64,000 nt of DNA from Escherichia coli (GTDB lineage Bacteria > Pseudomonadota > Gammaproteobacteria > Enterobacterales > Enterobacteriaceae): the NCBI RefSeq assembly GCF_003334765.1, contig NZ_QOWT01000021.1; one strand, 5' to 3'. The notes beneath the pieces are model-generated. The model was not told the DNA's origin. It made no database searches and saw nothing but the letters and a program-made list of their open reading frames with translations. Below, in pieces: positions 3,203 through 15,540 of this stretch. The position numbers and the translations under genes were made by a program. The first letter of the stretch is position 1. The number at the start of each line of letters is the position of its first letter.

Positions 3203-5648
<2,446 letters not shown>

Positions 5649-10158: not shown

Positions 10159-13705
<3,547 letters not shown>

Positions 13706-13817
13706 ATAGCGCAATATTTCATCGTTGGTGCAAAAATGTAACGCACTGTGCACTGTCATAGTGCGTTTTCATTTTCAAACTTCTTAACTTCCTGCTCTCT
13801 TTCTCGTTTTTCATTTC

Positions 13818-13833
13818 TGGCACACCGCTTGCA
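13818..13833 (+). promoter_or_regulatory. sigma54 (-24/-12) promoter TGGCAC-N5-TTGCA for glnK-amtB
   Basis: Exact consensus TGGCACaccgcTTGCA about 50 nt upstream of the glnK ATG; inverted CGCACT...AGTGCG element further upstream is a candidate NtrC site. Confidence 0.85.
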
Positions 13834-13885
13834 ATACCTTCTTCGTGTAGCAGAACCATTACCGAATTCTGACCGGAGGGGATCT

Positions 13886-14224
13886 ATGAAGCTGGTGACC
13901 GTGATAATCAAACCATTCAAGCTGGAAGACGTTCGTGAAGCGTTATCTTCCATTGGTATTCAGGGCCTGACCGTCACCGAAGTGAAAGGTTTCGGGCGTC
14001 AGAAAGGGCATGCCGAGCTGTACCGGGGGGCGGAATACAGCGTCAATTTCCTGCCAAAAGTAAAAATTGATGTGGCGATTGCTGATGACCAACTCGATGA
14101 AGTGATCGATATCGTCAGTAAGGCGGCTTACACCGGAAAAATTGGCGACGGCAAAATCTTCGTCGCTGAATTGCAACGCGTCATTCGTATTCGTACCGGC
14201 GAAGCCGACGAAGCGGCGCTGTAA
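13886..14224 (+). CDS. glnK: PII nitrogen regulatory protein GlnK (112 aa)
   Basis: Track ORF is over-extended; ATG 13886 gives MKLVTVIIKPFKLEDVREAL; T-loop uridylylation region GAEY present. Confidence 0.97.
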   Translation: MKLVTVIIKPFKLEDVREALSSIGIQGLTVTEVKGFGRQKGHAELYRGAEYSVNFLPKVKIDVAIADDQLDEVIDIVSKAAYTGKIGDGKIFVAELQRVIRIRTGEADEAAL

Positions 14225-14253
14225 TCTCTGGCACACAGCAACAGGAACGAAAA

Positions 14254-15540
14254 ATGAAGATAGCGACGATAAAAACTGGGCTTGCTTCACTGGCGATGCT
14301 TCCGGGACTGGTAATGGCTGCACCTGCGGTGGCCGATAAAGCCGACAATGCGTTTATGATGATTTGTACTGCGCTGGTGCTGTTTATGACTATTCCGGGG
14401 ATTGCCCTGTTTTACGGTGGGTTGATTCGCGGCAAAAACGTGCTGTCGATGCTGACGCAGGTGACGGTGACATTTGCACTGGTCTGTATTCTCTGGGTGG
14501 TTTACGGTTACTCGCTGGCGTTTGGTGAGGGCAACAACTTCTTCGGCAACATTAACTGGTTGATGCTGAAAAACATCGAACTGACGGCGGTGATGGGCAG
14601 CATTTATCAGTATATCCACGTGGCGTTTCAGGGATCGTTTGCCTGCATTACCGTCGGCTTGATAGTTGGGGCGCTGGCGGAACGAATCCGCTTCTCAGCT
14701 GTGTTGATTTTCGTGGTGGTATGGCTGACGCTCTCTTACATTCCGATTGCGCATATGGTGTGGGGCGGTGGTTTGCTGGCTTCTCACGGTGCGCTGGATT
14801 TCGCGGGTGGCACCGTGGTGCACATTAACGCCGCAATCGCCGGTCTGGTGGGCGCGTATCTGATAGGAAAACGCGTGGGCTTCGGTAAAGAGGCGTTTAA
14901 ACCGCACAACCTGCCGATGGTCTTCACCGGGACTGCCATTCTCTATATCGGTTGGTTTGGCTTTAACGCCGGGTCAGCGGGCACGGCGAATGAAATCGCG
15001 GCACTGGCATTTGTGAATACTGTGGTCGCAACGGCGGCGGCAATTCTTGGCTGGATCTTCGGTGAATGGGCGCTGCGTGGTAAGCCTTCACTGCTGGGGG
15101 CGTGTTCTGGCGCGATTGCCGGTCTGGTCGGCGTGACGCCAGCCTGCGGCTACATTGGGGTTGGCGGCGCGTTGATTATCGGCGTGGTAGCTGGTCTGGC
15201 GGGCTTGTGGGGCGTTACCATGCTCAAACGCTTGCTGCGGGTGGATGATCCCTGCGATGTCTTCGGTGTGCACGGCGTTTGTGGCATTGTCGGCTGTATC
15301 ATGACCGGGATTTTTGCCGCCAGCTCGCTGGGCGGCGTGGGCTTCGCTGAAGGTGTGACGATGGGCCATCAGTTGCTGGTACAGCTGGAAAGCATCGCCA
15401 TTACGATCGTCTGGTCCGGTGTTGTGGCATTTATCGGCTACAAATTGGCGGATCTGACGGTTGGTCTGCGTGTACCGGAAGAGCAGGAGCGAGAAGGGCT
15501 GGATGTCAACAGCCACGGCGAGAATGCCTATAACGCGTAA
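14254..15540 (+). CDS. amtB: Ammonium channel AmtB (428 aa)
   Basis: Signal peptide and multi-TM Amt/MEP family sequence; directly downstream of glnK. Confidence 0.97.
   Translation: MKIATIKTGLASLAMLPGLVMAAPAVADKADNAFMMICTALVLFMTIPGIALFYGGLIRGKNVLSMLTQVTVTFALVCILWVVYGYSLAFGEGNNFFGNINWLMLKNIELTAVMGSIYQYIHVAFQGSFACITVGLIVGALAERIRFSAVLIFVVVWLTLSYIPIAHMVWGGGLLASHGALDFAGGTVVHINAAIAGLVGAYLIGKRVGFGKEAFKPHNLPMVFTGTAILYIGWFGFNAGSAGTANEIAALAFVNTVVATAAAILGWIFGEWALRGKPSLLGACSGAIAGLVGVTPACGYIGVGGALIIGVVAGLAGLWGVTMLKRLLRVDDPCDVFGVHGVCGIVGCIMTGIFAASSLGGVGFAEGVTMGHQLLVQLESIAITIVWSGVVAFIGYKLADLTVGLRVPEEQEREGLDVNSHGENAYNA

What the first reader, a model, noticed from the sequence alone, without database searches (positions are those of the whole stretch)
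13710..13890. Textbook sigma54 promoter drives glnK-amtB
The exact TGGCAC-N5-TTGCA element sits at 13818-13833, about 50 nt upstream of glnK, with an upstream inverted repeat CGCACT-N12-AGTGCG that is a candidate NtrC site. It anchors the window as a nitrogen-regulated locus and is a good internal check on frame assignment, since the track's glnK ORF is over-extended through the promoter.
Basis: partly seen in the sequence, partly recalled or inferred. Interest (0 to 1): 0.3.

Follow-up and report, generated by a model that had tools for sequence, protein, structure and literature searches.

The report
Known E. coli glnK sigma-54 promoter

Summary
The window is E. coli chromosome (decR-mdlA-mdlB-glnK-amtB-tesB). 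TGGCAC-N5-TTGCA sits exactly at 13818-13833, 52 nt before the glnK ATG (13886). It is the only exact match in 64 kb (0.09 expected). The motif is kept in all 18 Enterobacterales glnK loci examined. Published sigma-54 ChIP-seq, NtrC ChIP-seq, genomic SELEX and a glnG deletion already establish it as glnKp. The finding is therefore correct but already known.

One correction is needed. CGCACT-N12-AGTGCG exists (13742-13765) but has the wrong geometry for NtrC. The conserved NtrC-type dyad is TGCACT-N5-AGTGCG (13749-13765, centre about -87), with a conserved TGGTGCA half-site 33 bp upstream. Relatives carry better copies, such as TGCACCGTCATGGTGCG.

I read it as an mdlB terminator overlapping the enhancer; this is inferred, not shown.

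The ORF over-extension claim is right: GTG 13748 gives 158 aa, against the real 112 aa.

Minor extras:
- The enhancer-to-promoter distance varies among relatives in steps of about 10-11 bp.
- The spacer is 82% pyrimidine.
- A CCTTCTTC anti-Shine-Dalgarno at -4 is the published glnKp "insulator".

The parts
13703..13705 (+). mdlB stop codon (TGA), the end of the upstream co-directional gene
   Evidence: ORF 11810..13705. RefSeq annotates mdlB up to this point in genomes with identical sequence.
13726..13732 (.). Conserved TGGTGCA half-site; probable weak second NtrC contact, with its 17-mer centred 33 bp upstream of the main dyad
   Evidence: Invariant in 8 of 9 Enterobacteriaceae in alignment A1. 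The 33-bp offset recurs in E. coli, E. albertii, Superficieibacter, three Enterobacter species and L083, and by my reading also in the two Citrobacter loci. It resembles the 32-bp spacing of the glnAp2 sites at -108 and -140. The exact register of a second NtrC dimer was not resolved.
13749..13765 (.). Main NtrC-type dyad, TGCACTGTCATAGTGCG (TGCACT-N5-AGTGCG), centred at 13757, about -87 from the predicted start
   Evidence: Matches 10 of 14 positions of the consensus TGCACCA-N3-TGGTGCA. Alone this is not above chance: 32 window hits against 36.7 expected. However, an orthologous dyad is present in 17 of 18 Enterobacterales loci, often as a better match, for example TGCACCAGCATGGTGCG and TGCACCGTCATGGTGCG. 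It lies about 50-130 bp upstream of the interval called as the NtrC ChIP-seq peak.
13740..13776 (+). Terminator-like element behind mdlB: 11-bp stem AACGCACUGUG / CAUAGUGCGUU (13740-13767), 6-nt loop, then tail UUCAUUUUC.
   Evidence: Called by the terminator scan. The fold gives -23 kcal/mol with z = -2.8. A hairpin plus T-run is present in all 9 aligned Enterobacteriaceae and in L081 and L083. 92.9% of cells are paired, and one pair switches U-A to C-G in a 4:5 split. No 3' end was mapped, so the function is inferred.
13768..13817 (+). Pyrimidine-rich (82% C+T) spacer, the looping region between enhancer and promoter; contains the direct repeat TTTTCATTT at 13766 and 13808
   Evidence: It is the most strand-biased 50-mer in the whole window; only 0.03% of 50-mers reach 80%. 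The repeat is reported. The spacer is about 58 bp shorter than in most relatives.
13818..13833 (+). Sigma-54 -24/-12 promoter element TGGCAC-N5-TTGCA (glnKp)
   Evidence: Conserved in all 18 Enterobacterales loci. It is sigma-54 ChIP-seq site OS03, CTGGCACACCGCTTGCA, and an RpoN holoenzyme SELEX peak. Described as a perfect consensus match in PMC7045595.
13837..13844 (+). CCTTCTTC anti-Shine-Dalgarno ('insulator') just upstream of the start site; present only in read-through RNA
   Evidence: Levy et al. mapped glnKp silencing to a 7-nt CT-rich region centred at -4. In the read-through fold this segment pairs with GGAGGGG. The probability that the SD is unpaired is 0.50 in the native transcript and 0.00 in the read-through transcript, but it is also 0.03 when the upstream sequence is shuffled.
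13844..13885 (+). Predicted transcription start (13844, give or take 2 nt) and 42-nt 5' UTR, with SD GGAGGGG at 13875-13881
   Evidence: C13832 taken as -12 gives +1 at 13844. This equals Bonocora's predicted start, 19 bp from the motif centre and 42 bp from glnK. The native UTR is unusually unstructured (z = +1.97). The start site is inferred; I did not see it mapped.
13886..14224 (+). glnK coding sequence (112 aa, PII-family regulator)
   Evidence: NCBIfam equivalog NF007946, 236.8 bits; RefSeq annotation.
14254..15540 (+). amtB coding sequence (428 aa, ammonium transporter), second gene of the operon
   Evidence: NCBIfam equivalog NF007947, 880.5 bits; annotation. A single promoter for glnK-amtB is stated in PMC4958250.

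Best explanation
The region is glnKp, the single promoter of the E. coli glnK-amtB operon.

How it works:
1. RNA polymerase carrying sigma-54 binds TGGCAC-N5-TTGCA (13818-13833) as a closed complex that cannot open on its own.
2. Under nitrogen limitation, phosphorylated NtrC binds the upstream enhancer. This comprises the main dyad TGCACT-N5-AGTGCG at 13749-13765 (about -87) and a conserved TGGTGCA half-site 33 bp further upstream.
3. NtrC oligomerises, contacts the polymerase by looping the roughly 50-bp pyrimidine-rich spacer, and uses ATP to open the promoter.
4. Transcription starts near 13844. The 42-nt leader is unstructured, so the Shine-Dalgarno sequence is free.

The enhancer is a poor consensus match, which fits the published description of glnK as a weak-enhancer promoter that fires only at high NtrC-P.

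Two further layers are inferred. Second, any RNA that reads through carries the CT-rich sequence, including CCTTCTTC at -4, which pairs with the glnK Shine-Dalgarno and blocks translation. Together these would keep glnK-amtB silent unless NtrC fires.

Status of each step:
- Shown by sequence and comparison here, and by published experiments: sigma-54 and NtrC binding, and glnG dependence.
- Inferred: the exact start site, the register of the second NtrC dimer, terminator function, and insulation in the native context.
For: Identity of the locus. The intergenic DNA is present in 5424 of 5426 complete E. coli genomes between mdlB and glnK.

Promoter motif. It is exact and unique in the window. 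A -24/-12 element lies 59-104 nt before the ATG in all Enterobacterales loci. No sigma-70-like promoter was found in 13300-14400.

Published experiments.
- Sigma-54 ChIP-seq peak OS03 on this 17-mer (PMC4591121).
- NtrC ChIP-seq peak 1, at 471741-471821, which is window 13805-13885, with glnK mRNA not readily detected in a glnG deletion and restored by complementation (PMC4066584).
- Genomic SELEX peaks for RpoN holoenzyme and for NtrC in the mdlB-glnK spacer (PMC8743547).
- glnK transcription 'depends exclusively' on NtrC activation (PMC3870243).
- glnK has a weaker enhancer than glnAp2 (PMC10657418).

NtrC dyad. The consensus is a 17-bp dyad. Orthologous dyads with 1-4 mismatches out of 14 occur in 17 of 18 loci. 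The block 13726-13765 is a phylogenetic footprint and is invariant in the sampled E. coli variants.

Terminator.

Insulator.
Against: - The E. coli dyad alone (10 of 14 consensus positions, counted as 9 of 12 in the scan) is no better than chance in the window. Its assignment rests on position, conservation and low-resolution ChIP.
- I could not read the primary footprinting or start-site papers (van Heeswijk 1996; Atkinson 2002), so -87 and +1 = 13844 are my inferences. EcoCyc listed the promoter as 'predicted' in 2015.
- Terminator: the T-tail in E. coli is interrupted (UUCAUUUUC). Covariation amounts to one pair, which follows phylogeny, and its 3' base also lies in the NtrC dyad.
- Insulator: shuffling the upstream 76 nt sequesters the SD almost as well (0.03 against 0.00). 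The effect therefore reflects CT-rich composition, and it was measured by Levy et al. with a synthetic ribosome-binding site, not the native one.
Confidence: 0.93

Rival explanations
1. The reader's inverted repeat (CGCACT-N12-AGTGCG) is itself the NtrC binding site, and there is no terminator function.
For: It overlaps the conserved enhancer block. NtrC binds inverted repeats, and NtrC occupies this intergenic region in vivo and in vitro.
Against: The NtrC consensus is a 17-bp dyad with 5 nt between the hexamers, not a 24-bp dyad with 12 nt. In Yersinia, Rahnella, Acerihabitans and Photorhabdus only the N5 dyad is conserved, and the outer left arm is absent. The outer arm AACGCA and an immediately following T-run co-occur in every Enterobacteriaceae locus aligned. 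That pattern is the signature of an intrinsic terminator.
Confidence: 0.05
2. The hairpin is only an mdlB terminator. The dyad match is coincidental and NtrC activates from another site.
For: The E. coli dyad is no better than chance matches elsewhere in the window. The published ChIP-seq interval (13805-13885) is centred on the promoter, not on 13757.
Against: The dyad is conserved where no T-run or terminator exists, and it approaches consensus in relatives, with as few as 1 mismatch in 14. No alternative NtrC-like site exists between the mdlB stop and the promoter. Its distance from the promoter changes only by whole helical turns, which makes sense for a looping activator site but not for a terminator.
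Confidence: 0.04
3. The sigma-54 motif is a non-productive or chance binding site, like the many intragenic sigma-54 sites, and glnK is transcribed from another promoter or by read-through from mdlB.
For: Many sigma-54 sites in E. coli are transcriptionally silent (PMC4591121). EcoCyc listed glnKp as predicted. glnKp reporters were among the weakest of 12 sigma-54 promoters tested.
Against: The motif is conserved in position and orientation in all 18 loci. No sigma-70-like promoter was found. glnK mRNA depends on glnG. Read-through is opposed by a terminator-like hairpin and by anti-SD pairing. glnKp drives NtrC-dependent reporter expression in synthetic enhancers.
Confidence: 0.02

Closest known systems
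E. coli K-12 glnKp (the glnK-amtB promoter; sigma-54 ChIP-seq site OS03 of Bonocora et al. 2015)
   Same: It is the same element. The 17-mer CTGGCACACCGCTTGCA is identical, as are the flanking genes and the 42-bp distance from the predicted start to glnK. Window coordinate plus 457936 gives the U00096.2 coordinate.
   Different: Nothing of substance. The window carries A at 13779, where 5 other sampled E. coli genomes have T.
glnAp2, the archetypal NtrC/sigma-54 promoter of glnALG
   Same: Both have the -24/-12 architecture, an upstream NtrC enhancer and activation by looping. The two NtrC contacts lie about three helical turns apart: 33 bp here, against sites at -108 and -140 in glnAp2.
   Different: glnAp2 has two high-affinity dyads, whereas glnK has one imperfect dyad plus a half-site, described as a 'weaker enhancer'. 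The glnAp2 enhancer overlaps a sigma-70 promoter (glnAp1). The glnK enhancer overlaps a terminator-like hairpin instead. The glnK enhancer also lies closer to the promoter (about -87).
Anti-Shine-Dalgarno 'insulator' in sigma-54 promoters (Levy et al. 2017, bioRxiv 10.1101/086108)
   Same: glnKp is the founding example. The CT-rich segment centred at -4 is CCTTCTT at 13837-13843, and my folds reproduce anti-SD:SD pairing only in read-through RNA.
   Different: The published assays used a synthetic ribosome-binding site and reporter. Pairing with the native glnK SD is only predicted here, and it is not specific relative to shuffled CT-rich sequence.
Helical-repeat indel tolerance of bacterial enhancers (Brunwasser-Meirom et al. 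2016; qrr/LuxO enhancers in Vibrio)
   Same: Enhancer-to-promoter distances at glnK orthologues fall at -87, -97, -107, -117/-118, -130/-131 and -140 to -142. These steps are about one helical turn each.
   Different: The published case is LuxO-qrr. The glnK/NtrC series is my own observation from only six spacing classes (Monte Carlo p about 0.013).

Membership tests
Sigma-54 (RpoN) -24/-12 promoter | GG and GC doublets exactly 10 bp apart in the context TGGCAC-N5-TTGCA | tested here: met
   Exact match at 13818-13833. It is unique in the window, with 0.09 expected by chance.
Sigma-54 (RpoN) -24/-12 promoter | Correct strand and a plausible distance upstream of a gene, conserved at orthologous loci | tested here: met
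   52 nt before the glnK ATG. A -24/-12 element is present 59-104 nt before the ATG in all 18 Enterobacterales loci, and in 44 of 79 loci overall.
Sigma-54 (RpoN) -24/-12 promoter | Occupied by sigma-54 holoenzyme | not testable with these tools
   From the literature: ChIP-seq site OS03 with a fold-above-threshold score of 18 (PMC4591121), and an RpoN holoenzyme SELEX peak (PMC8743547).
Sigma-54 (RpoN) -24/-12 promoter | Transcription strictly dependent on an enhancer-binding protein, with the start about 12 nt after the GC | not testable with these tools
   glnK mRNA is lost in a glnG deletion and restored by complementation (PMC4066584). Exclusive dependence on NtrC is stated in PMC3870243. 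I did not see the start site mapped; 13844 is a prediction.
NtrC (NRI) enhancer site | 17-bp dyad resembling TGCACCA-N3-TGGTGCA | tested here: inconclusive
   TGCACTGTCATAGTGCG matches 10 of 14 positions. Matches at this level occur at chance frequency in the window: 32 observed against 36.7 expected.
NtrC (NRI) enhancer site | The site is conserved upstream (about -80 to -150) of the sigma-54 promoter in orthologues | tested here: met
   An orthologous dyad occurs in 17 of 18 loci at -87 to -142, often closer to consensus.
   It spans 24 bp with a 12-nt spacer, whereas the consensus is 17 bp with 5 nt between the hexamers. The outer left arm is not conserved outside the Enterobacteriaceae.
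NtrC (NRI) enhancer site | NtrC occupancy | not testable with these tools
   NtrC ChIP-seq peak 1 with 39.7-fold enrichment, and an NtrC SELEX peak. The resolution is too low to name the bases bound.
Intrinsic (Rho-independent) terminator | Stable stem-loop followed directly by a U-rich tail, just downstream of a co-directional stop codon | tested here: met
   The 11-bp stem at 13740-13767 is followed by UUCAUUUUC and begins 35 nt after the mdlB TGA.
Intrinsic (Rho-independent) terminator | Structure maintained in relatives, with compensatory change | tested here: inconclusive
   A hairpin plus T-run occurs in 11 of 11 Enterobacteriaceae-type loci, and 92.9% of cells are paired. Only one pair shows a double change, and it follows phylogeny.
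Intrinsic (Rho-independent) terminator | RNA 3' ends at the U-tract | not testable with these tools
   No 3'-end data were found.
Anti-SD insulator of sigma-54 promoters (Levy et al.) | CT-rich motif upstream of the start site that can pair with the downstream SD only in read-through RNA | tested here: met
   CCTTCTTC (13837-13844) pairs with GGAGGGG in the read-through fold. The SD unpaired probability is 0.50 in the native transcript and 0.00 in the read-through transcript.
Anti-SD insulator of sigma-54 promoters (Levy et al.) | The effect is specific to the sequence arrangement, not just to composition | tested here: not met
   Shuffled upstream sequence gives 0.03 +/- 0.04, so any CT-rich arrangement sequesters the SD.

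The most novel reading that the evidence does not exclude
The NtrC enhancer of glnK and the intrinsic terminator of mdlB may be written in the same 28 bp, with the terminator loop and 3' arm forming the NtrC dyad. In that case one sequence would have to satisfy an RNA-structure constraint and a protein-DNA constraint at once. Together with the anti-SD spacer, this would form a compact two-layer insulator. In addition, spacer indels between enhancer and promoter have been tolerated in Enterobacterales evolution only in whole helical turns (-87, -97, -107, -118, -131, -141). That would be a natural demonstration of face-of-helix dependence for an NtrC enhancer.
Probability: 0.35. Interest if true: 0.25.

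Novelty: already known. Interest (0 to 1): 0.1.

Why it matters
As a discovery it matters little. glnKp is one of the standard NtrC/sigma-54 promoters of E. coli and has been used for decades as a reporter of NtrC activity.

Its value here is as a calibration point:
- It fixes the window's identity and coordinates (window + 457936 = U00096.2).
- It confirms the true glnK start.
- It also shows the limit of that approach: choosing the most obvious inverted repeat gave the wrong activator-site geometry.

The side observations would be of modest interest to people who study enhancer looping and operon insulation. These are the terminator overlapping the enhancer and the spacing changes in whole helical turns.

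Tried and rejected
- Rfam scan of 13500-14400 at E-value 1 or below found no known RNA family.
- A consensus scan for NtrC sites in the window cannot separate the real site from chance, so I relied on conservation instead.
- The metagenome pattern scan, meant to enlarge the alignment for covariation, returned only 3 loci, of which 2 were usable.
- The primary papers were not held: Atkinson et al. 2002 (PMC135341), Reitzer and Schneider 2001 (PMC99035) and Zimmer et al. 2000 (PMC18977). The ChIP-exo supplement of PMC9853098 was not held either. I therefore could not confirm published footprint or start-site coordinates.
- A literature search for a mapped mdlB terminator found nothing relevant.
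- I considered a second sigma-54 promoter at CTGGCACAC (14228-14236) and rejected it, because there is no GC at the -12 position.
- I considered a coding role for the 46-codon upstream extension of the ORF and rejected it. The extension crosses the promoter, the region carries indels that do not preserve frame (about 58 bp) in relatives, and GlnK homologues all start at MKL.
- The specificity test for anti-SD sequestration was negative against shuffled sequence of the same composition.

Full report
**1. What and where**

The window is E. coli chromosome. The 401 bases around the finding are 100% identical to many complete E. coli genomes and occur in 5424 of 5426 of them. The annotated neighbours are decR, mdlA, mdlB, glnK, amtB, tesB, ybaY and ffs.

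Two published sigma-54 motif centres let me tie the window to K-12 coordinates. Window position plus 457936 equals the U00096.2 position.

**2. Observation check**

- TGGCACACCGCTTGCA lies at 13818-13833. It is the only exact TGGCAC-N5-TTGCA in 64 kb on either strand, against 0.09 expected.
- The glnK ATG is at 13886, with GGAGGGG at 13875-13881. The motif ends 52 nt upstream of the ATG.
- CGCACT (13742-13747), 12 nt, AGTGCG (13760-13765) is present. It is part of a longer repeat, AACGCACTGTG / CATAGTGCGTT.
- The mechanical ORF 13748-14224 (GTG, 158 aa) does run through the promoter. The real protein is 112 aa and matches the GlnK equivalog end to end. RefSeq starts glnK at this ATG.

**3. The promoter**

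Taking C13832 as -12 puts +1 at 13844 and gives a 42-nt leader. Bonocora et al. predict the same start for their sigma-54 ChIP-seq site OS03, whose motif is this exact 17-mer.

No sigma-70-like promoter is found in 13300-14400.

I fetched 79 glnK loci from other species without reference to the promoter. All the Enterobacterales loci among them, together with the E. coli window and two metagenomic loci, carry a -24/-12 element 59-104 nt before the ATG (18 loci in all). So do 44 of the 79 fetched loci overall.

Published experiments settle the function:
- Sigma-54 ChIP-seq occupancy (PMC4591121).
- An NtrC ChIP-seq peak at window 13805-13885, with glnK mRNA not readily detected in a glnG deletion and restored by complementation (PMC4066584).
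- RpoN holoenzyme and NtrC genomic SELEX peaks in the mdlB-glnK spacer (PMC8743547).
- The statement that glnK transcription depends exclusively on NtrC activation, with 400-fold higher NtrC activity under starvation (PMC3870243).
- NtrC-inducible reporter activity of glnKp (bioRxiv 10.1101/086108).
- glnKp described as a perfect consensus match (PMC7045595).

**4. The NtrC site: a correction**

The NtrC consensus is a 17-bp dyad, TGCACCA-N3-TGGTGCA.

A second left arm, TGCACT at 13749-13754, pairs with the same right arm at the correct spacing. This gives TGCACTGTCATAGTGCG (13749-13765, centre 13757, about -87).

In E. coli this matches only 10 of 14 consensus positions. Matches of that quality occur at chance frequency in the window, 32 against 36.7 expected. 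The sequence alone therefore proves nothing.

The comparative evidence does. The orthologous position carries:
- TGCACCAGCATGGTGCG in Superficieibacter.
- TGCACCGTCATGGTGCG in Enterobacter sp. Bisph1.
- TGCACTAATTTGGTGCG in Photorhabdus.
- CGCACTAATTTGGTGCG in Yersinia.

In all, 17 of 18 loci have such a dyad. The 40-bp block 13726-13765 is the strongest footprint in the intergenic alignment. It is invariant in the sampled E. coli variants.

A TGGTGCA half-site at 13726-13732 is conserved with a fixed 33-bp offset. This recalls the 32-bp spacing of the two glnAp2 sites at -108 and -140.

One imperfect dyad plus a half-site agrees with the published description of glnK as a weak-enhancer promoter. 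I could not obtain the original footprinting paper, so the register of the second NtrC dimer remains open.

**5.

The 11-bp stem at 13740-13767 has a 6-nt loop and the tail UUCAUUUUC. It begins 35 nt after the mdlB stop. The terminator scan calls it, and it folds at -23 kcal/mol with z = -2.8.

Every Enterobacteriaceae-type locus has the same arrangement, usually with a cleaner run of 5-8 T. On the nine-sequence alignment, 92.9% of cells pair, against 25-66% for slid controls. One pair switches U-A to C-G in a 4:5 split, with no broken intermediates.

This evidence is limited. It is a single event that follows phylogeny, and the 3' base of that pair also lies inside the NtrC dyad.

In Yersinia, Rahnella, Acerihabitans and Photorhabdus the dyad is kept, but the outer arm and T-run are not. 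My reading is therefore as follows:
- The NtrC dyad is the older and wider constraint.
- In Enterobacteriaceae an mdlB terminator has been built around it.
- The terminator's loop and 3' arm double as the NtrC site.

Terminator activity itself is inferred, not shown.

**6. Spacer and leader**

The spacer 13768-13817 is 82% pyrimidine on the coding strand. It is the most strand-biased 50-mer in the window.

Levy et al. showed that glnKp silences translation of a downstream gene when it is transcribed by read-through. The effect is independent of rpoN and depends on orientation. It maps mainly to a 7-nt CT-rich segment centred at -4. That segment is CCTTCTT at 13837-13843, which independently agrees with +1 = 13844.

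My folds give the same picture:
- The native leader is less structured than 198 of 200 shuffles.
- The read-through RNA pairs CCUUCUUC with GGAGGGG.
- The SD unpaired probability falls from 0.50 to 0.00.

However, shuffling the upstream 76 nt gives 0.03. The effect is therefore one of CT-rich composition, not of a specific arrangement.

**7. Spacing in whole helical turns**

The distance from dyad centre to predicted +1 falls into six classes across the 18 loci: -87, -97, -107, -117/-118, -130/-131 and -140 to -142. The phases cluster at a 10.5-bp period, with R = 0.81 and a Monte Carlo p of about 0.013 for six classes.

E. coli and E. albertii have the shortest spacer, about 58 bp less than most relatives.

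Tolerance of 10-11 bp indels was predicted and shown for LuxO-qrr enhancers (PMC4740811). glnK appears to be a second natural example. The sample is small and the classes are not fully independent.

**8. Verdict**

The finding is real, correctly located and correctly interpreted in its main claim, but it is already known in detail.

The one substantive correction is that the NtrC site is the N5 dyad at 13749-13765 plus an upstream half-site. The N12 repeat is not the NtrC site; it is best read as the stem of a terminator-like hairpin behind mdlB.

Interest is low. The side observations are minor and partly anticipated in the literature.

Noticed in passing
window 54594-54609 (+): This is the only other near-match to the sigma-54 consensus in the window: TGGCACTGGTTTTGCT, with 1 mismatch. 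It corresponds exactly to the published intragenic sigma-54 ChIP-seq site IS02 inside ybaT (motif centre 512537 in U00096.2). It is therefore a documented sigma-54 binding site within a gene whose function is unknown.
   Followed up: partly
window 13749-13765 versus loci L002-L018, L081, L083: The distance from the NtrC dyad to the glnK promoter takes six values across Enterobacterales: -87, -97, -107, -118, -131 and -141. The steps are about one helical turn each (Rayleigh R = 0.81 at 10.5 bp; Monte Carlo p about 0.013). E. coli and E. albertii have the shortest spacer.
   Followed up: partly
window 13768-13817: The enhancer-promoter spacer is 82% pyrimidine on the + strand, making it the most strand-biased 50-mer in the whole 64-kb window. 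It contains TTTTCATTT twice, 42 bp (four helical turns) apart, at 13766 and 13808.
   Followed up: partly
window 14228-14236: The 9-mer CTGGCACAC of the promoter recurs in the 29-nt glnK-amtB intergenic spacer. It is conserved in Escherichia, Citrobacter and Superficieibacter. It has no GC at the -12 position, so it is not a sigma-54 promoter. Its meaning is unknown, and it may simply be part of the amtB translation-initiation region.
   Followed up: partly
locus L087 (E. coli isolate 30859_5#287, NZ_OZ040756.1), equivalent to window ~13872: In this isolate the match to the window breaks off inside the glnK leader, between the promoter and the Shine-Dalgarno sequence. It continues as GGTGATGCTGCCAACTTACTGATTTAGTGTATGATGGTGTT. 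From memory this looks like an IS1 terminal inverted repeat, which I did not verify. An insertion there would uncouple glnK-amtB from glnKp.
   Followed up: no
locus L001 (E. coli ER1709, NZ_CP030240.1) 4287-4624: glnK is annotated as a frameshifted pseudogene in this laboratory strain, although its promoter region is identical to the window. In the window itself glnK is intact.
   Followed up: no
loci L004-L006 and L083, about 60-75 bp upstream of the main dyad: Enterobacter-type loci carry an additional NtrC-like sequence overlapping the mdlB stop codon, for example CCTGATGCACCAAAAATAAGCA and TGCACCACAACCATGCA. E. coli lacks it. This suggests a stronger or three-site enhancer in those species.
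   Followed up: no
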